NCBI GenBank assembly: GCA_047971245.1 | Contig: JBKDZN010000165.1 | Coordinates: forward strand, 1-61,468 | Source: Acidimicrobiales bacterium | Lineage (GTDB): Bacteria > Actinomycetota > Acidimicrobiia > Acidimicrobiales > SZUA-35 | Direction: 5' to 3' | Length of the DNA stretch: 61,468 nucleotides | Shown here: piece by piece, positions 2,658-56,873 of the stretch | How positions within the stretch are numbered: the stretch's first letter is position 1 | Layout of the letters: the number at the start of each line of letters is the position of its first letter | Position numbers and translations under genes: made by a program | The notes under the pieces: model-generated | What the model saw: only the letters and a program-made list of their open reading frames with translations | The model's database searches: none | What the model was told of the DNA's origin: nothing

Positions 2658-3887
2658 ATGGCCGCCCCCGCCCCACCCCACCGGTTCCGGTGGCCCGCCC
2701 CGATCGACGTCGGCCTGGCCGCCTGCCTGGCCGCCATCTCGGTCCTGGTGGCCGTCCAGGCCCAGGCCGGGGGCAGCCCCGGGGCGGAAGCGCCCACCAC
2801 CTGGTGGGCGTGGATCCTGGTGGTCCTCCCCTCGGTCGCGGTCGCCTTCCGCCGCCGGGCCCCCCTGGCCGCCACGGTGGTGGCGGTCGTCGGCCAGATG
2901 CTGATCTGGGGCCTCGACCTGACCGAGGTGTTCGTGGCCCCGCTCGTCCTGATGTACTCGGCGGCCGCGGTGGGGGGCCGAAGGGGCCTCCGGGTCAGCA
3001 TCCTCGCCGGGGTGGCCCTCACCGCGATGACCGCCGTCGGGCTCACCCGCGCCCCCGACGTCAACGCCGACCTGCTTCTGCTCACCGCTCTGTCGTCGGC
3101 GGTGGCGGTCACCCTCGGGGTGAACGCCGCCAACCAGCAGGCGGCATCCGGCCGCCTGGCCGCCGATCTGGCCGTGGCCGAGCTCAGCCGGGACGCCGCC
3201 CAGGAGTCGGCGGTGGCCCGGGAACGGGAACGGATCGCCCGGGAGCTCCACGACCTCGTCGGCCACTCCCTGGCCGTGATCGCCGTCCAGGCCGAGGCGG
3301 CCCAACGGCTCGGCGAGGACAAGCCGGGCGACGCCCGGGACGTGGTGGTCGCCATCGGGGACACCGCCCGCCGGTCCCTGGCCGAGGTGCGCCGGGTCCT
3401 CCACGCCGGTTTCGGTGACGCGGAGGCCGATTTCCGCCCCGGAACCGGCCTCGTCGACCTGCCGGAACTGGTCGACCGGGTCGCCGCGTCCGGGGTGGCC
3501 GTCCGGCTGGAGGTCACCGGCCCGGTCGCCCCGGGCGACGTCGACGCCGCCACCGGGGCCGGGATCTACCTGATCGTCCAGGAAGCCCTCACCAACGTCA
3601 TCAAACACGCAGGCCCGCGGACAGCGGCGGCCGTCACCGTCACCGTGGAGGTCGACGAGGTGCGGGTCGAGGTCGTCGACGCCGGCCGGGGCCCCGGGGA
3701 CACCGACGGTCCCCAACCCCGGACCGGTATGGGGCTGGTCGGGAGGACCGAACGGGCCCGGTTCCTGGGCGGCGCCCTCGACGCCGGGGCCAACACCGGC
3801 GGCGGGTTCCGGGTCCGAGCCACCCTGCCCCACCACGGGCCCCCGACCGTCCCCCAGGCCACCCCCACCCGAGGAGAACCGCGATGA
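2658..3887 (+). CDS. Membrane sensor histidine kinase (HisKA_3 type)
   Basis: Several TM helices; H-box ERERIARELHDLVGHSL; N-box VQEALTNVIKHA; ATGA overlap with the response regulator. Confidence 0.93.
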   Translation: MAAPAPPHRFRWPAPIDVGLAACLAAISVLVAVQAQAGGSPGAEAPTTWWAWILVVLPSVAVAFRRRAPLAATVVAVVGQMLIWGLDLTEVFVAPLVLMYSAAAVGGRRGLRVSILAGVALTAMTAVGLTRAPDVNADLLLLTALSSAVAVTLGVNAANQQAASGRLAADLAVAELSRDAAQESAVARERERIARELHDLVGHSLAVIAVQAEAAQRLGEDKPGDARDVVVAIGDTARRSLAEVRRVLHAGFGDAEADFRPGTGLVDLPELVDRVAASGVAVRLEVTGPVAPGDVDAATGAGIYLIVQEALTNVIKHAGPRTAAAVTVTVEVDEVRVEVVDAGRGPGDTDGPQPRTGMGLVGRTERARFLGGALDAGANTGGGFRVRATLPHHGPPTVPQATPTRGEPR

Positions 3888-41919: not shown

Positions 41920-43896
41920 GTGGAACAGATCAGTGTGACCTTGCCCGACGGTTCCCAACGGGAACTCGACGCCGGGGCGACTGCGGCCGATCTGGCCGCC
42001 GGGGTCGGCCGGAGGCTGGCCAAGGACGCCCTCATCGCGGTGGTCGACGGCCGACCGACCGATCTGACCACCCCCCTCGGCGACGGGGCGAAGGTGGAGA
42101 TCGTCACCCCTGGATCCGCCCTCGGGGTCGACACCCTGCGCCATTCCACGGCCCATGTGCTGGCCCAAGCCGTGCTGGCATTGTGGCCCGGGTCGACCTT
42201 CGCCATCGGTCCCGCCATCGAGGACGGCTTCTACTACGACTTCGACCTGCCCGACGGGCAGACCTTCACCGACGACGATCTCGAACGCATCGAGGCCAGG
42301 ATGCGTGACATCATCGCCGCCGATCAGCCCTTCGTGCGCTCGGAGGTCGGCGCCGATGAGGCCCGTGCCCTCATGGCCGAGCACCCCTACAAACGGGAGA
42401 TCATCGACCGGGTCACCAGCGGTGACGCGGATGGGCTCGGCACCGAGGTGGCCGGCGACGACGGCGGCGGTGTGGTCAGCTTCTACCGGAACTCCGACAC
42501 CTTCGTCGACATGTGCGTGGGTCCCCATGTGCCCTCCACCGGCCGTCTCGGCCACTTCAAGCTCATGAAGGTGGCCGGTGCCTACTGGCGAGGTGACGAG
42601 CACGGTCCGATGCTGCAGCGCATCTACGGGACGGCCTGGCCCGACGCGGCGTCTCTCGCCGCCCACCTGGAACGGTTGGAGGAGGCGGCCAAGCGCGACC
42701 ATCGCCGCCTGGCGAACGAGCTCGACCTGCTCTCGTTCCCCTCCGAGCTCGGGGGCGGCCTGGCCGTGTGGCACCCGAAGGGGGCGATCGTCCGCAAGCT
42801 GATGGAGGACTACTCCCGGCAGCGCCACCAGGACGGCGGCTATGAGTTCGCCTACACCCCGCACCTGGCCCGCTCCGACCTGTTCGCCACCTCCGGGCAC
42901 CTCGACTTCTACGCCGACTCCATGTACCCGCCCATGGAGATGGACAACGGCATCTACTACCCGAAGCCGATGAACTGCCCCATGCACGTGCTGATCTACC
43001 GGTCGCGCCAGCGGTCCTACCGGGATCTGCCGTTGCGCCTGTTCGAACTGGGCACGGTCTACCGCTACGAGCGGGCGGGCACCCTGCACGGCCTGCTCCG
43101 CACCCGCGGGTTCACCCAGGACGACGCCCACATCTTCACCACCCCCGACGAGGTCGGGGCCGAGATCATCAGCCTGCTCGAGTTCGTTCTCAGCGTGCTG
43201 CGGGCCTTCGGTTTCGCCGAGTTCTCGGCCCGGCTCGCCACCCGCCCACCGGAGAAGTCGGTGGGCACCGACGAGGTGTGGGATCTGGCCACCACCGCCC
43301 TGCGGGACGCCCTGGAAACGGCCGGACTCGACTACGACATCGACGAGGGCGGCGGCGCCTTCTACGGCCCCAAGATCGACATCGACGTGCAGGACGCCAT
43401 CGGCCGCTCCTGGCAGCTGTCGACCATCCAGGCCGACTTCAACCTGCCCGAACGCTTCGGCATCGAATACGTGGCCCCCGACGGGGAACGGCGCCGACCG
43501 ATCATGCTGCACCGGGCCCTGTTCGGATCGGTGGAGCGGTTCTTCGGGGTGCTGCTCGAGCACTTCGCCGGCAACCTTCCGGCCTGGCTGAGCCCGGTCC
43601 AGGTGGTCGTGCTGCCGGTGGCCGCCGACCACGAACCCTACGCCCGCTCGGTGGTGGACCGCCTGACCGGGGCCGGGATGCGGGTCGAGATGGTTGCGGC
43701 CACCGACCCGCTGGGCAAACGGATCCGCAACGCCAAGACCCAGAAGGTCCCCTATGTGCTGGTGGTGGGAGGCGACGATGTGGACGCGGGCACCGTGGGG
43801 GTCAACCCCCGGGGCCGGCAGGTGGAGCGCGACGTTCCCCTGGACGACTTCGTGGCCCGGTTGAGCGCCGAGGTCGAGCAGCGCAGCGGGGTCTGA
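41920..43896 (+). CDS. thrS: Threonine-tRNA ligase
   Basis: TGS domain, RHSTAH, DMCVGPH, GAYWRG, KPMNCP, QDDAH, AFYGPKID, MLHRA. Confidence 0.98.
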   Translation: MEQISVTLPDGSQRELDAGATAADLAAGVGRRLAKDALIAVVDGRPTDLTTPLGDGAKVEIVTPGSALGVDTLRHSTAHVLAQAVLALWPGSTFAIGPAIEDGFYYDFDLPDGQTFTDDDLERIEARMRDIIAADQPFVRSEVGADEARALMAEHPYKREIIDRVTSGDADGLGTEVAGDDGGGVVSFYRNSDTFVDMCVGPHVPSTGRLGHFKLMKVAGAYWRGDEHGPMLQRIYGTAWPDAASLAAHLERLEEAAKRDHRRLANELDLLSFPSELGGGLAVWHPKGAIVRKLMEDYSRQRHQDGGYEFAYTPHLARSDLFATSGHLDFYADSMYPPMEMDNGIYYPKPMNCPMHVLIYRSRQRSYRDLPLRLFELGTVYRYERAGTLHGLLRTRGFTQDDAHIFTTPDEVGAEIISLLEFVLSVLRAFGFAEFSARLATRPPEKSVGTDEVWDLATTALRDALETAGLDYDIDEGGGAFYGPKIDIDVQDAIGRSWQLSTIQADFNLPERFGIEYVAPDGERRRPIMLHRALFGSVERFFGVLLEHFAGNLPAWLSPVQVVVLPVAADHEPYARSVVDRLTGAGMRVEMVAATDPLGKRIRNAKTQKVPYVLVVGGDDVDAGTVGVNPRGRQVERDVPLDDFVARLSAEVEQRSGV

Positions 43897-51835: not shown

Positions 51836-52582
51836 GTGTCAGGTCACTCCAAATGGGCAACCATCAAACACAAGAAGGGCGCGGCCGACATCAAGCGCGG
51901 CAAGCTCTTCGCCAAGCTCATCAAACAGGTGGAAGTGGCGGCCCGTCAGGGGGGCGGCGATCCGGACTCCAACCCCACCCTGCGGACCATGTTCCAGAAG
52001 GCCCGCGACAATTCGGTCCCGCTCGACACGATCGAGCGGGCGGTCAAGCGGGGCACCGGCGAGCTCGACGGGGTCAACTACGAGCCGATCACCTACGAGG
52101 GCTACGCCCCCGGCGGGGTGGCCCTGATGATCGAGGTGCTCACCGACAACCGCAACCGGACCGGGTCGGAGATCCGGTCGCTGCTGACCAAGAACGGGGG
52201 CTCCCTGGCCGAACCGGGCGCCGTGGCCTGGCAGTTCGCCCGGAAGGGCGTGGTCCGGGTGGCCCGATCGGCCGACGAGGACGAGGTCATGATGGTCGGC
52301 CTCGACCACGGGGCCGAGGACGTCGAGGACCATGAGGAGGTCTGGCAGGTCACCTGCGAGGCCGGCGACGTCACCGGCCTCCGCGCCGCGTTGGAGGAGG
52401 CCGGGCTGGAGGTGGCCGACTCCGACACCCCGATGCTGCCCACCAACACGGTGCCCCTCAGCGATGTGTCACAGGTCAAGGCGGTGCTCAACCTGATCGA
52501 CCTGCTCGACGACCACGAGGACGTGCAGGACGTCTTCTCCAACGTCGACATCCCCGACGAGGTCCTCGAAGCGGTCGGCTGA
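51836..52582 (+). CDS. yebC: YebC/PmpR-family protein
   Basis: MSGHSKWATIKHKK, YEGYAPGG, TDNRNRT, DVQDVFSN. Confidence 0.97.
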   Translation: MSGHSKWATIKHKKGAADIKRGKLFAKLIKQVEVAARQGGGDPDSNPTLRTMFQKARDNSVPLDTIERAVKRGTGELDGVNYEPITYEGYAPGGVALMIEVLTDNRNRTGSEIRSLLTKNGGSLAEPGAVAWQFARKGVVRVARSADEDEVMMVGLDHGAEDVEDHEEVWQVTCEAGDVTGLRAALEEAGLEVADSDTPMLPTNTVPLSDVSQVKAVLNLIDLLDDHEDVQDVFSNVDIPDEVLEAVG

Positions 52583-52613: not shown

Positions 52614-53438
52614 TCAGATCCCGGCGGCCACGCCCAACAGGCGCGAGCGGGTCACCGCCCGCATGCCCCGGGCCAGGCTGAACCCGGCCACGAACCAGGC
52701 CACGGCGCCGACCACGAGGGGCAGGATGCCGGCCCCGAACAGGACCCCGGTGGCCTGGCTGTAGGCGATCATGATCAGGGGCAGACTGACCAGGCCCGAT
52801 GCCTGCTGGGCGGCGGCGGTGGAGCTGACCCGGGCCGAGAGCCGCAACACCAGGGACAGGCAGATGGCCAGGAACGGGGGCAGGACCCACAGGATCATCA
52901 CCCACCACTGGGCGGTCGGGAAGAACCAGCCCCCCACCGACGGGCCGACCATCAGGTTCACGATGACCGAATACGCCCCGAACCCGAGGGCCACGGTCAG
53001 ATAGCCAGGGATCAGACTGGCGATCAGCTTCCCGACATAGATCTCACGGGCCGACGCGGGGGAGTGGGCCAGGAACTCGCCGGTACCGCGCTCCCGTTCC
53101 CCGACGATGGTGGCGGCCCCCACCGCGGTGGAGATGGTGAGGGGCACGATCACCGCCACGGGGGCGAACAGGAACACCGCCAGGGCGTAGCCGGTCTGGC
53201 CCTCCGGTGAGTCACCCCGGATCTGGGACCGGGCCGCCTCGGGCAGGGCCTCCAGGGCGTCGGACACCCTCGACACCACCTCGACGCTGCCGATCCGGGT
53301 GATCGACAGCAGCAGGATGGCGGGTACCACCACATAGAACAGCGAACCGAGCAGGAGCATGGGCAGCCAGAAGTCCTTGGCCTGCGACAACTGGCGCAGC
53401 TCGATGCGGGCCACGGTGGCGATGCGCTCCCGGTTCAT
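52614..53438 (-). CDS. ABC-2 type permease
   Basis: 6 TM, GERERGTGEFL..P, GK; ATGA-coupled to the ATPase. Confidence 0.88.
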   Translation of the reverse strand: MNRERIATVARIELRQLSQAKDFWLPMLLLGSLFYVVVPAILLLSITRIGSVEVVSRVSDALEALPEAARSQIRGDSPEGQTGYALAVFLFAPVAVIVPLTISTAVGAATIVGERERGTGEFLAHSPASAREIYVGKLIASLIPGYLTVALGFGAYSVIVNLMVGPSVGGWFFPTAQWWVMILWVLPPFLAICLSLVLRLSARVSSTAAAQQASGLVSLPLIMIAYSQATGVLFGAGILPLVVGAVAWFVAGFSLARGMRAVTRSRLLGVAAGI

Positions 53439-54502
53439 GACCTCACCCCCGCCTGCTCGGCGTGCGGCGCCCCGAGCCGCGAGCGGTCACCGTCGAGCCG
53501 CCCGTCACCGGCGTCGCCGTTGGCGTCGGGCCGGGGCCCCGGCGGTGGCCACCCCCGTTGGGGTCGGGGCCGGCCGGACCGGTGGTGGCCCCGCACCGCG
53601 AAGTAGATGTCCTCCAGGGACGGCTGGTATGGCTCCACCGACCGCAACCGGATCCCGGCCGCGCTCATACCGAGGATCAGGTCACCGACCCGGTCCATCC
53701 GGTCGAGGGTCACCATCACCCCTCCGCCCTCCAGATCACAGGCGAGGACCCCGTCGGCGGCGGCGATCGGCCGCAGGTCCACCCCCGGTTCGGCCGTGAA
53801 CGTCACCACCGGATCGGGCCAGTACCGATCGGCCATCTCGACCTGGGTGCCGCTGGTCATGACCGCCCCCTGCTCCATGACCACCACCTGGTCGGCCAGC
53901 CCTTCGGCCTCGATCAGCAGGTGGGTGCACAACACCACGGTGTTCCCGTCGTCGGTCATGGCCCGGATCAGGTCGAGGACCGCGGTCGCCGACTCCGGGT
54001 CGAGGCCCGAGGTGGGTTCGTCGAGCAGGAGCAGATCCGGGCCGTGCAGCACAGCCCGGCTGAGGGCGAGTCGGGTCTTCATCCCGGTCGAATAGCCACC
54101 GACCTGCAGCTCGAGGGCATCCGCGATCCCGAACCGGTCGGCAGCCTCCCGGATGCGGGCCTCGGCACCCTCCCCCCGGCCGAGCCCGTAGAGCCGGGCG
54201 GCGTAGCGGAGGTTGTCGAACCCGGACAACCGGTCGTAGAGCGACGGCTTGGCCGAGAAGACCCCACAGCGGCGCCGGACCTCCTCGCCCTGGGCGTCGT
54301 CACACGGGTCGAGGTCGAACACTCGGACCGTGCCGGTGTCGGGCCCGAGGGCCCCGGTGACGAGGCGGATGGCCGTGGTCTTGCCCGCCCCGTTCGGTCC
54401 GAGGAGGACGGTGATCGACCCGGCCGGTGCCTCCAGGGTCACCCCTCGGAGGGCGTCGACGGATCCGAACCGCCGCGAGACGTTTTGAAGCGAAACCAAC
54501 AC
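53435..54502 (-). CDS. ABC transporter ATP-binding protein
   Basis: GPNGAGKT, YSTGMK, LLLDEPTSGLD, CTH, PSLEDIY. Confidence 0.9.
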   Translation of the reverse strand: MLVSLQNVSRRFGSVDALRGVTLEAPAGSITVLLGPNGAGKTTAIRLVTGALGPDTGTVRVFDLDPCDDAQGEEVRRRCGVFSAKPSLYDRLSGFDNLRYAARLYGLGRGEGAEARIREAADRFGIADALELQVGGYSTGMKTRLALSRAVLHGPDLLLLDEPTSGLDPESATAVLDLIRAMTDDGNTVVLCTHLLIEAEGLADQVVVMEQGAVMTSGTQVEMADRYWPDPVVTFTAEPGVDLRPIAAADGVLACDLEGGGVMVTLDRMDRVGDLILGMSAAGIRLRSVEPYQPSLEDIYFAVRGHHRSGRPRPQRGWPPPGPRPDANGDAGDGRLDGDRSRLGAPHAEQAGVRS

Positions 54503-54566
54503 CTGGCTTCCTTCGGCACGATCACCGTCACCCTCAAGCCCCCATCGGGCGGCTACCGTCGTACAG

Positions 54567-55076
54567 GTGTTCGTCCTCGGGATCGATCCTGGTCTGTCGC
54601 GCTGCGGCTACGCCGTCCTCGAGCCCCAGGCCCGTCACCGCTGCCGTCCCGTGGCCATCGGGGTGATCCGCACCGCGGCCGATCAGCCCGTCGCCGTTCG
54701 CCTGGCCGAACTGCGCCACGAGCTGGGCCTGCTGTTCGACGACTACCGGCCCTCGGTGCTGGCCCTCGAGCGGGTGTTCGCCCAACGGAACCTGCGGACC
54801 GTGGTGGGCGTGGCGCAGGCGTCGGGGTTGGCCATGGCCGAGGCCGCGGGCCGGGGTGCGGCGGTGGCCGAGTACTCCCCGTCGGCGGTGAAGGCGGCGG
54901 TGACCGGCGACGGCCGGGCCGACAAGCTGCAGGTGCAGACGATGGTGCAGATGCTGCTCGGCCTGGTCGAACCCCCCCGCCCGGCCGACGCCGCGGACGC
55001 CGCCGCGGTGGCCCTGTGCCACCTGGCCCACGCCCCGGCGGCCCGGGCCCGGTCACGGGCCATGGGGGCGGGATGA
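54567..55076 (+). CDS. ruvC: Holliday junction resolvase
   Basis: LGIDPG, ALERVF, VKAAVTG.G.A.K, PADAADA. Confidence 0.96.
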   Translation: MFVLGIDPGLSRCGYAVLEPQARHRCRPVAIGVIRTAADQPVAVRLAELRHELGLLFDDYRPSVLALERVFAQRNLRTVVGVAQASGLAMAEAAGRGAAVAEYSPSAVKAAVTGDGRADKLQVQTMVQMLLGLVEPPRPADAADAAAVALCHLAHAPAARARSRAMGAG

Positions 55077-55153
55077 CGGCCCGGACCCGGCAACCTGGCA
55101 CGAGAACAACAACAACAACGACGGTGACGGCGACAATGGGAGGGTGGCGATGA
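55073..55153 (+). other. Candidate 26-aa Thr-rich mini-ORF coupled to ruvC and ruvA; contains (AAC)5 at 55105-55119
   Basis: [30 protein letters not shown] overlap at both ends. Translation not demonstrated. Confidence 0.45.
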
Positions 55154-55764
55154 TCGGCTGGTTGCGGGGACGGGTGGTCGACCGGGAGTCGGCGTCCGGG
55201 CGGGCCACGCTGCCGGAAGTGATCGTCGAGGTGGGTGGGGTTGGCTACCGGGTGAACGTCACCTCCACGGCCCTGGCCCGCCTGGCGCTCGACGACGAGG
55301 TGGTGCTGCACGTCCACCACCACCTGTGGGAGGCCGACCAGAAGCTCTACGGGTTCACCACCAAGGCGGAACGGGTCGCCTTCGAGGGCCTGCTCGCCGC
55401 CCATGGGGTCGGCCCGGCCCTGGCCATGGCCGTCCTGGCCACCCACCCGGCCGATCGGTTGGCCCGGATCCTGGCCGACGACGATCTCGACGCCCTCCGC
55501 CAGGTGCCGGGGGTGGGCCTGAAGACGGCCCAGCGAATGCTGGTGGAGCTCAAATCCACCCTGGTCCTCCCGGACGAGGCCGACGCGGGCGCGGACGGGA
55601 CCGATGCCGGTCCCGACGCCCTGGGCGACGTGGGGGAGGCCCTGGCCAACCTGGGCTATTCGGCCGACGAGATCAAGGCGGCGGTGGCCGGCCTCGATCC
55701 GGCCGACGGTGACGCCGGGGCCCTGCTCCGCCGGGCCCTCCGCTCCCTGGCCGGGGCCCGCTGA
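55150..55764 (+). CDS. ruvA: Holliday junction DNA-binding protein
   Basis: [40 protein letters not shown]. Confidence 0.96.
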
Positions 55765-56873
55765 TGCCCCGGGACGAACTGGTCGACCCCCGGCCCATGC
55801 CCGATGAGCTCGGCGGGGCCCCCCGCCGGGAACCGGTGCGGCTGGAACCCGACCGGATCGACCTCGACGGCGGCCCGCCCGACGAGGCCGGGCTCCGGCC
55901 CCGGTCCATGGACGATTTCGTGGGCCAGGCCGAACTGAAGGAACGTCTCGGCGTCATCCTGGAGGCGGCCCGCGGCCGGGGGAGCCCGGCCGACCATCTC
56001 CTGTTCGCCGGTCCCCCCGGGCTCGGCAAGACGACCCTGGCCGGGATCGTGGCCGCCGAGCTCCGGTCCCACATCCATGTGACCTCCGGTCCGGCCATCG
56101 AGCGGGCCGGGGATCTGGCCTCCATTCTCACCAACCTCGAACCGGGTGATGTGCTGTTCGTGGACGAGATCCACCGGCTCCCCCGCACCGTGGAGGAGGT
56201 CCTCTACCCGGCCATGGAGGACCGCCAGATCGATGTGGTGCTGGGCAAGGGGCCGGCGGCCCGGTCGATCCGGTTCGACCTGGAGCCGTTCACCCTCGTC
56301 GGGGCGACCACGCGCACCGGTCTGCTCACGGGGCCCCTGCGCGATCGGTTCGGGTTCGCCTTCCGGCTCGACTACTACGACCCCGCCGACCTGGAAGCCA
56401 TCGTCATCCGGGCCGCCGATGTCCTCGGCGTGTCCATCGACCGGCCGGGTGCAGCCGAGATCGCCCGCCGCAGCCGGGGCACCCCCCGTATCGCCAACCG
56501 CCTCCTCCGCCGGGTCCGGGACTACGCCGAGGTCCGGGCCGACGGGGTGATCGACCGGGCCACCGCCGCCGACGGGCTCCGCCTGTTCGGCATCGACGAG
56601 CGGGGCCTCGACACCGTCGACCAGCAGCTCCTCACCAGCATCTGCCTCCGGTTTGGCGGCGGCCCCGTCGGCCTGTCCAACCTGGCCATCAGCGTCGGGG
56701 AACCCACCGAGACGGTGGAGGACGTCATCGAGCCGTTCCTGATCCAGCAGGGCCTCATCATCCGCACCCCCCGGGGCCGGGTGGCCACCGAGGCCAGCTG
56801 GCGCCATCTCGGCCACGAACCGCCGGTCGGCGGTGAGTTCGTGCCCGCCCCACCGAACCTGTTCGACGAGTGA
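55764..56873 (+). CDS. ruvB: Holliday junction branch-migration ATPase
   Basis: [42 protein letters not shown]. Confidence 0.98.

What the first reader, a model, noticed from the sequence alone, without database searches (positions are those of the whole stretch)
55073..55153. Poly-Thr mini-ORF translationally coupled to both ruvC and ruvA
Seen: the ruvC stop (TGA 55074-76) overlaps an ATG. This opens [26 protein letters not shown], whose TGA overlaps the ruvA ATG (55150-53). 11 of 26 residues are Thr. The run of six includes four consecutive ACA codons preceded by AGA, both rare in this GC-rich DNA, and is built on an (AAC)5 microsatellite whose unit changes keep the frame. Known: runs of one amino acid in leader peptides sense aminoacyl-tRNA supply, and thrS lies in this gene block. 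Inference: a ribosome relay that could tune RuvA/B output relative to RuvC by Thr-tRNA(UGU) availability. Caveat: ruvA has its own GGAGG RBS.
Basis: partly seen in the sequence, partly recalled or inferred. Interest (0 to 1): 0.72.

Follow-up and report, generated by a model that had tools for sequence, protein, structure and literature searches.

The report
Ribosome relay between ruvC and ruvA
A 26-codon reading frame starts on the stop codon of one DNA-repair gene (ruvC) and ends on the start codon of the next (ruvA), a layout that related bacteria keep while its sequence drifts, so it likely hands ribosomes from gene to gene; its threonine run was seen only in this genome and is probably not a sensor.

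Summary

Of 227 classified ruvC-ruvA junctions (54 families, one order), 197 overlap directly and 30 have a spacer. In 26 of those 30, a stop-free mini-ORF, or a chain of two, runs from the ruvC stop to the ruvA start. These fall in 11 families and need about 19 changes on a tree; overlap-to-overlap distances run from 8 to 172 nt and the peptides are unrelated. This genome has 76 such relays, about twice the shuffled expectation.

The six-Thr run lies almost wholly in a 27-nt AAC-repeat segment that the sister species lacks; no other relay ORF has more than three Thr in a row. thrS is 10.7 kb away, beyond two antisense genes.

Best reading: a sequence-free relay that likely preserves ruvC-to-ruvA translational coupling; poly-Thr is a frame-preserving microsatellite by-product. 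Translation was not measured. It works like mycobacterial MIRU ORFs but has no second copy in the genome. This scan noted such relays before on other DNA, not at ruvC-ruvA.

The parts
54567..55076 (+). ruvC (169 aa); its TGA is the first overlap
   Evidence: TIGR00228 above cut-off; NF000711 162.3 bits against a cut-off of 163
54554..54573 (+). Predicted -10 hexamer (TACCGT, 54554-59) 7 nt before the ruvC GTG and a LexA-like box (54560-73) over the start: likely a leaderless, SOS-controlled start of the ruvCAB mRNA (context; inferred)
   Evidence: box in 196 of 218 loci, TANNNT at 6-8 nt in 201 of 218; consensus from PMC9380542
55073..55076 (+). First ATGA overlap: ruvC stop and relay ORF start
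   Evidence: ATGA also in sister G010
55073..55153 (+). Relay mini-ORF, 26 codons; ATGA-to-ATGA distance 77 nt (2 mod 3)
   Evidence: no NCBIfam match; not on record as a called protein
55099..55125 (+). 27-nt segment absent from sister G010; holds the (AAC)5 tract (55105-19), the AGA and the Thr run (the gap can be slid by a few codons)
55139..55143 (+). GGAGG Shine-Dalgarno-like site of ruvA, inside relay codons 22-24
   Evidence: duplex -10.4 kcal/mol against a median of -6.4 for directly coupled ruvA
55150..55153 (+). Second ATGA overlap: relay stop and ruvA start
   Evidence: GTGA in G010
55150..55764 (+). ruvA (204 aa)
55764..56873 (+). ruvB, TGATG overlap with ruvA

Best explanation
The 77-nt stretch is a short open frame overlapping the ruvC stop and the ruvA start by four bases each, and it likely works as a relay that preserves termination-reinitiation coupling from ruvC to ruvA across a spacer that would otherwise break it. 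Shown: the geometry; direct RTGA overlap as the usual state of this junction; repeated appearance of spacers that nearly always keep the chain; free drift of length (in steps of three) and of peptide. Inferred: ribosomes ending RuvC restart at the overlapping AUG, translate 26 codons, stop on the UGA inside the ruvA start and restart there, probably helped by the ruvA SD. The peptide is likely irrelevant. The poly-Thr run is likely a by-product: in a relay only length changes of 3n are tolerated, so a trinucleotide microsatellite can grow there and must read as a one-residue run.
For: Direct overlap in 197 of 227 classified loci (191 at -4, 5 at -1, 1 at -11); 26 of the 30 spacers are complete relay chains. 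They lie in 11 families, in 21 maximal all-relay clades, 19 changes by parsimony. Counting once per family, 11 relay against 2 non-relay gives P = 2e-4 if one frame in three is hit by chance and 0.011 if one in two. Three loci have two chained relays with a total gap of 0 mod 3, as a relay predicts (L064, L170, L230). Births by junction duplication are visible in L064, L185 and L230, whose relay peptides copy the RuvA N-terminus. Of the four exceptions, L053 is a TGATG overlap in frame with ruvA, L179 and L213 carry a second copy of a ruvC-like leader whose frame still ends on the ruvA GTGA, and L221 keeps the frame with CTGA. G000 and G010 keep both overlaps through a 27-nt indel and 12-13 differences in 51 aligned bases spread over all codon positions (4/4/5; 8 of 17 residues differ), whereas ruvC differs 5/7/45. 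Genome-wide: 76 relays among 139 junctions with NTGA at both ends, against a null mean of 36.7 (maximum 51 in 300); 75:29 against 303:283 for gap classes 1 and 0 mod 3, Fisher P = 1e-4. Literature: about 20 nt of spacer almost abolishes coupling (PMC10666635, abstract); coupled short ORFs can keep the linkage without the peptide (PMC4633059, passages).
Against: No translation data for any locus. ruvA here has a stronger SD than most directly coupled ruvA genes, and ruvA starts behind relays are predicted easier to open (median 12 against 16 kcal/mol, P = 6e-5, kin not independent), so ruvA may initiate without the relay. The relay frame in G000 is poorly codon-adapted (CAI 0.20 against 0.63 for the same bases read in the ruvA frame). 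About half of the 76 genome-wide relays are expected by chance, and the gene calls are my own. Selection seen across the order does not prove present use at this one locus. The G000 spacer shows no duplication signature (5 of 12 and 5 of 12 identities, null mean 4.3), so its origin is unresolved. The tree is a FastTree on 247 columns with modest support. The ruvA-ruvB junction is far less strict (13 direct, 4 relay, 42 other, 9 unscored of 68).
Confidence: 0.75

Rival explanations
1. Relic without present function: spacers arise by junction duplication or by a frameshift in the dispensable RuvC tail, which give the double overlap for free, and ruvA now starts from its own SD.
For: Duplications visibly create the first RTGA (L064, L185, L230). 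RuvC tails are 0-60 aa and hypervariable, so a former tail frame is stop-free by descent. Strong ruvA SD in G000.
Against: Duplication gives the right frame one time in three and a tail frameshift one time in two; the observed share is 11 of 13 families. Length changes inside relay clades are multiples of three (73/46, 37/40, 49/67). A start codon overlaps the ruvC stop in all 26 (17 ATG, 5 GTG, 4 TTG).
Confidence: 0.13
2. One reading: tandem rare ACA codons make relay transit, and so RuvA/RuvB output, depend on charged tRNA-Thr(UGU), by throttling ribosome delivery or by holding open a helix that covers the first ruvA codons.
For: ACA is 1.6% of Thr codons; tRNA-Thr(UGU) is encoded. Thr is 23 of 210 codons in 16 other relays (one per clade, G000 left out), above shuffles (mean 13.3-13.5, P <= 0.002) and above RuvC tails (4-5%). 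The predicted fold pairs the 5' half of the relay with ruvA codons 2-7, and a ribosome on the relay lowers the opening cost from 15 to 10-12 kcal/mol. Polycysteine sORFs act by stalling in mycobacteria (10.1101/834739, abstract and Discussion).
Against: The run is missing from the sister species and from all 28 other relay ORFs. Only 3 of the 23 other Thr codons are ACA; Glu is more enriched than Thr; ATG-started relays at unrelated junctions have 12% Thr; the excess over gene N-termini (7.8%) is not significant (P = 0.06). The opening effect is the same at non-Thr codons 3-11 as at Thr codons 12-16, is absent in G010, and the fold has z = -1.5. No terminator-like site. Downstream genes have no link to threonine; thrS is 10.7 kb away, beyond two antisense genes.
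Confidence: 0.05
3. The AAC tract is an unstructured, A-rich standby or enhancer patch for SD-led ruvA initiation, 31-45 nt before the start; the frame is incidental. Not exclusive of the best explanation.
For: The tract is unpaired in the predicted fold. [quoted passage not shown]
Against: The tract is absent in G010, and this reading does not explain frame conservation in 26 of 30 spacers.
Confidence: 0.05
4. The spacer is coding in the ruvA frame: a +1 shift at the ruvC UGA gives a RuvC-linker-RuvA fusion, or RuvA has an N-terminal extension.
For: A gap of 1 mod 3 also fits a +1 shift; the ruvA frame is open from 54904 and looks codon-typical (CAI 0.63, GC3 0.88); it is open across 22 of 26 relay spacers.
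Against: It is closed in 4 of 26; the three double relays are 0 mod 3; G000 has no ATG/GTG/TTG in that frame before 55144; long open off-frames are common at this GC content; it does not explain the start codon on the ruvC stop.
Confidence: 0.02

Closest known systems
Mycobacterial interspersed repetitive units (MIRUs; Supply et al. 1997, seen only as summarised in PMC12548453 section 11, with lengths from PMC4213456 passages)
   Same: An ORF inside an intergenic insert is coupled at -4 so that expression of the next gene is kept; MIRUs of 77 and 53 bp are both 2 mod 3, as are the 77-nt distance here and four 53-nt ones in relatives (the mod-3 reading is my arithmetic).
   Different: MIRUs are repeated and apparently mobile. 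This spacer has no second copy in the genome, shares no sequence across clades, and arose repeatedly at one junction, at least three times by local duplication.
Termination-reinitiation coupling at ATGA/TGATG overlaps (Huber et al. 2019 PMC6728339 and 2023 PMC10666635, abstracts)
   Same: Both ends are 4-nt RTGA overlaps; direct overlap is the usual state of this junction.
   Different: Two successive restarts through a non-conserved filler ORF instead of one; coupling was not measured here.
RTGA-coupled small ORFs of mycobacteria (Shell et al. 2015, PMC4633059, passages)
   Same: Small ORF whose stop overlaps the next start; linkage kept while the peptide diverges.
   Different: Those are leaderless first ORFs coupled on one side; this one sits inside an operon and is coupled on both sides.
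Short ORFs in integron attI1 and attC sites (review PMC8876359, passages)
   Same: A short ORF between two cistrons is described as carrying ribosomes on by termination-reinitiation, with little dependence on its residues.
   Different: Those belong to a recombination site of mobile cassettes; this is a chromosomal housekeeping junction with exact overlaps at both ends.
Amino-acid-sensing leader ORFs: polycysteine leaderless sORFs (10.1101/834739) and actinobacterial attenuators (PMC1262725, passages)
   Same: A short ORF with a run of one amino acid ahead of a gene.
   Different: There the run is conserved, leads the transcript and controls genes of that amino acid's metabolism; none of these holds here. 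The 2005 survey saw no conserved RNA element before actinobacterial threonine operons.

Membership tests
Amino-acid-sensing leader peptide (attenuator / polycysteine type) | Run of codons for the sensed amino acid | tested here: met
   Six Thr in a row, four ACA
Amino-acid-sensing leader peptide (attenuator / polycysteine type) | Run conserved at orthologous loci | tested here: not met
   Absent in sister G010; longest run 3 in 1 of 28 other relay ORFs, 2 or fewer in 27
Amino-acid-sensing leader peptide (attenuator / polycysteine type) | Controlled genes make, carry or charge that amino acid | tested here: not met
   Downstream genes are ruvA and ruvB; thrS is 10.7 kb upstream beyond two antisense genes
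Amino-acid-sensing leader peptide (attenuator / polycysteine type) | Terminator or SD-sequestering structure switched by a ribosome at the run | tested here: inconclusive
   No terminator-like site; a weak predicted helix over ruvA codons 2-7 (z -1.5) opens equally at non-Thr codons and is absent in G010
Amino-acid-sensing leader peptide (attenuator / polycysteine type) | Expression responds to limitation of the amino acid | not testable with these tools
   Needs a reporter or proteomics
MIRU | [quoted passage not shown] | tested here: met
   ATGA at 55150-53, and also at 55073-76
MIRU | Repeated, interspersed copies in the genome | tested here: not met
   blastn-short of the spacer against the assembly: in the 30 rows printed, no match longer than 23 nt besides itself; assembly 90% complete
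MIRU | Sequence relatedness to mycobacterial MIRU units | not tested
   No MIRU sequence was fetched
Termination-reinitiation (TeRe) coupled pair | Stop and start overlap by 4 or 1 nt | tested here: met
   Both ends; 26 of 30 spacers and 196 of 197 direct junctions
Termination-reinitiation (TeRe) coupled pair | Downstream translation depends on upstream translation | not testable with these tools
   Needs reporters or ribosome profiling
Leaderless RTGA-coupled sORF (Shell 2015) | ORF begins at the 5' end of a transcript | tested here: inconclusive
   Its ATG overlaps the ruvC stop and no TANNNT-like hexamer stands 6-8 nt before it; no transcript-start data
Leaderless RTGA-coupled sORF (Shell 2015) | Coupled linkage kept while the peptide is not | tested here: met

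The most novel reading that the evidence does not exclude
Relay ORFs are obligatory, sequence-free stretches of translation inside operons and so are ready ground for new translational sensors; in this lineage an AAC-repeat expansion has put four tandem rare ACA codons into the relay and thereby created, from scratch, a tRNA-Thr(UGU)-dependent throttle on RuvA/RuvB relative to RuvC in an SOS operon.
Probability: 0.06. Interest if true: 0.75.

Novelty: new variant of a known kind. Interest (0 to 1): 0.43.

Why it matters
If the relay reading is right, the ruvC-ruvA junction is a natural experiment repeated many times in one order: whenever sequence comes between the two genes, it survives almost only if ribosomes can still step from stop to start. 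That supports, from comparative data, the reporter result that post-termination ribosomes do not cross even short spacers (PMC10666635), and it implies that dozens of 'intergenic' stretches per genome in these bacteria are translated fillers that annotation misses (about 40 above chance here). It also warns that one-residue runs in such ORFs need not be sensors: trinucleotide repeats are the only microsatellites a relay can tolerate. The headline claim of threonine control over Holliday-junction resolution is not supported.

Tried and rejected
Metagenome scan with RuvA returned 8 distant loci of 32-43% identity (L032-L039); these and the paralogous hit L031 were left out of the counts (9 of 238 loci). 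Of the 229 examined, L071 has no ruvC in the fetched stretch and L156 could not be resolved, leaving 227. Sequencing runs: none was listed and no RNA holder was listed, so the repeat length and expression are unchecked. A RuvC protein search found no relative above 71% identity outside the query's own two-member cluster, and a 19-nt pattern scan of genome contigs gave 23 stretches, 4 with ruvC-ruvA, none adding a further close lineage; so the gain or loss of the 27 nt cannot be polarised. Rfam: 0 matches at E <= 1 in 54300-55400. Sigma-70 promoter and terminator scans: 0 and 0. Interspersed-repeat origin rejected. Junction-duplication origin for G000 itself not supported. The 297-aa antisense ORF at 54553-55446 was not chosen by the gene finder's plus-strand-consistent calls and is taken as a shadow frame (inference). 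Frameshift fusion and enhancer readings are kept only as minor rivals. The 21-against-2 clade count gives P = 1e-8 but overstates independence, so the per-family figure is used. Eight literature searches listed no paper on relay ORFs at ruvC-ruvA or on a genome-wide excess of doubly coupled intercistronic ORFs; the library lacks most subscription papers, Supply 1997 was not read, and no supplements were opened (those of PMC4633059 may list such ORFs).

Full report
Observation. The window reads ATGA at 55073-76 and at 55150-53, and the frame between them is [26 protein letters not shown]. The flanking genes are ruvC (54567-55076) and ruvA (55150-55764), followed by ruvB. ACA is 1.6% of Thr codons and AGA 0.4% of Arg codons in 3,646 genes called by my own dicodon gene finder, which recovers the starts of ruvC, ruvA and ruvB used here. 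The (AAC)5 tract is the only one of that length in the assembly. thrS is at 41920-43896; two minus-strand genes, an ABC ATPase and a likely permease, lie between that block and ruvC. Close RuvC relatives carry the label Acidimicrobiales, so the host is probably of that order (inference).

The junction in relatives. I fetched the ruvA region from every genus member held, nearly all family members and a sample of the order. Of 238 loci, 9 were left out as distant or paralogous, 1 lacks ruvC in the stretch and 1 was unresolved; 227 loci from 227 genomes in 54 families were classified. In 197 the genes overlap directly (191 by RTGA). Thirty have a spacer, and in 26 of them a start codon overlaps the ruvC TGA (17 ATG, 5 GTG, 4 TTG) and opens a stop-free frame, or a chain of two, whose TGA overlaps the ruvA start. 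Distances run from 8 to 172 nt. The peptides share nothing beyond what ATGA and the ruvA SD impose. The four exceptions are informative: L053 is a TGATG overlap that adds two residues to RuvA; L179 and L213 hold a second copy of a ruvC-like leader, and a frame from it still ends on the ruvA GTGA; L221 keeps the frame but begins with CTG.

Independence. A FastTree on RuvC core plus RuvA N-terminus (247 columns) puts the relays in 21 maximal clades with 19 parsimony changes, in 11 families. G000 and G010 form one clade inside a genus whose other 11 members overlap directly. Counting each family once, 11 relay against 2 non-relay families gives P = 2e-4 if the frame is hit one time in three (duplication origin) and 0.011 if one in two (frameshift in the RuvC tail), before asking for the start codon. 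Three loci show birth by duplication of the junction, for example L064 with three copies of a 17-nt unit reading LIGTLR*, LIGLLR* and then RuvA. G000 shows no such signature, so its origin is open. The pattern could reflect selection against the other two frames as much as for the relay, but both need ribosomes to restart at the first ATGA (inference).

Genome-wide. Among 1,991 adjacent co-directional pairs, 375 overlap by 4 nt and 65 by 1 nt. Of 1,062 with gaps of 4-150 nt, 139 have NTGA at both ends: 75 with gap 1 mod 3, 29 with 0, and 35 with 2 (26 of these may be mis-called starts). Seventy-six form complete chains, against 36.7 on average and at most 51 in 300 frame-randomised shuffles; 75:29 against 303:283 gives Fisher P = 1e-4. 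So this locus is one of some 76, about half of them expected by chance.

The threonine run. Against G010 the spacer has one 27-nt indel, 55099-55125, which holds the repeat, the AGA and the run. The remaining 17 codons differ at all three positions alike (4/4/5; 8 residues), unlike ruvC (5/7/45) and ruvA (14/13/43): the peptide is not constrained. Of 28 other relay ORFs one has three Thr in a row and 27 have two or fewer. But 14 of the 23 are ACG and 3 ACA, Glu is more enriched, the excess over gene N-termini (7.8%) is not significant (P = 0.06), and ATG-started relays at 15 unrelated junctions of G000 have 31 Thr in 256 codons. The excess is a trait of relay ORFs, not of ruv control. A predicted helix pairs the 5' half of the relay with ruvA codons 2-7 (z = -1.5); blocking a ribosome footprint lowers the cost of opening the ruvA start from 15.3 to 10-12 kcal/mol at any codon from 3 to 16, Thr or not, and G010 shows no such effect. 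There is no terminator-like site and no Rfam match.

Mechanism. Most likely ribosomes load at the ruvC start, which looks leaderless and LexA-covered (box in 196 and TANNNT in 201 of 218 loci; consensus tCGAAC-N4-GNNCGa and ruvC/ruvA as LexA targets in Streptomyces from PMC9380542 passages), stop at the first ATGA, restart, run 26 codons and restart again at ruvA. The geometry and its conservation are shown; every step of translation is inferred. Coupling at ATGA overlaps was shown for 13 of 14 tested pairs (PMC6728339, abstract) and fails across about 20 nt (PMC10666635, abstract), which gives the reason a filler ORF would be kept. Against full dependence: the ruvA SD here is strong, and ruvA starts behind relays are predicted more open than directly coupled ones. 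Confidence 0.75; relic 0.13; Thr sensing 0.05; enhancer 0.05; fusion or extension 0.02.

Comparison with what is known. It works like the ORF in a MIRU (PMC12548453 section 11; lengths 77 and 53 bp in PMC4213456 passages), like the short ORFs of integron att sites (PMC8876359 passages) and like coupled mycobacterial sORFs whose linkage outlasts their peptide (PMC4633059 passages); coupled uORFs are also reported in Sinorhizobium (PMC13285730, abstract). It is not a MIRU, since it has no second copy, and not a sensing leader of the kind in 10.1101/834739 (abstract and Discussion) or PMC1262725 (passages), since the run is not conserved and the genes are unrelated to threonine. Eight searches listed no paper on this junction or on a genome-wide excess. 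This scan holds 29 earlier notes with similar wording on other genomes and none on ruvC-ruvA; I did not check their DNA and do not count them as support.

Verdict. Observation confirmed; relay supported by a strong comparative signal; threonine sensing unlikely. New variant of a known kind (non-mobile, repeatedly born, doubly coupled filler ORF); interest 0.43.

Noticed in passing
window 54554-54573 (+): ruvC looks leaderless (TACCGT 7 nt before the GTG) with a LexA-like box over the start; box in 196 of 218 and TANNNT in 201 of 218 related loci. The right half of the box doubles as the first RuvC codons. Fourteen genes of the genome have such a box near the start; three have N-termini that I recall as UvrA, LexA and DinB (not tested).
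   Followed up: partly
L179 (G274) and L213 (G341), ruvC-ruvA spacer: The spacers hold a second copy of the ruvC-like leader (-10, LexA-like box, MFV/LFV-like start) whose frame ends on the ruvA GTGA: ruvA may have gained its own SOS promoter with a coupled leader ORF.
   Followed up: partly
L064 (G063), L230 (G114), L185 (G196), L170 (G216): Tandem duplications of the ruvC/ruvA junction or of a relay, with 17-nt units in three of them, giving one or two chained mini-ORFs.
   Followed up: yes
L055 (G088): Direct overlap inside a clade of 49-nt relays; its RuvC tail ends like the neighbours' relay peptides, as if the relay had fused back into RuvC (weak tree support).
   Followed up: partly
genome G000, 76 junctions listed: Relay chains at many other junctions, including double and one triple chain; about twice the null.
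   Followed up: partly
ruvA-ruvB junction, L098, L101, L105, L116: Four relay ORFs among 68 loci long enough to score; this junction is otherwise much less strictly coupled.
   Followed up: partly
window 52614-54502 (-): An ABC ATPase and likely permease pair sits antisense between yebC-like 51836-52582 and ruvC, divergent from ruvC across 64 nt.
   Followed up: no
window 3452-3545 (+): ARAGORN reports a tRNA-like gene with an unassigned four-base anticodon field; it is not among the 40 Rfam tRNA matches of the genome, so probably spurious.
   Followed up: no
genome G000, contig C21 near 3709-3738: Two neighbouring (AAC)4 tracts, the only other ones of four units.
   Followed up: no
L030 (G027), L156 (G238): ruvC appears broken by a frameshift in L030 (two HSPs); L156 could not be resolved and may be similar.
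   Followed up: no
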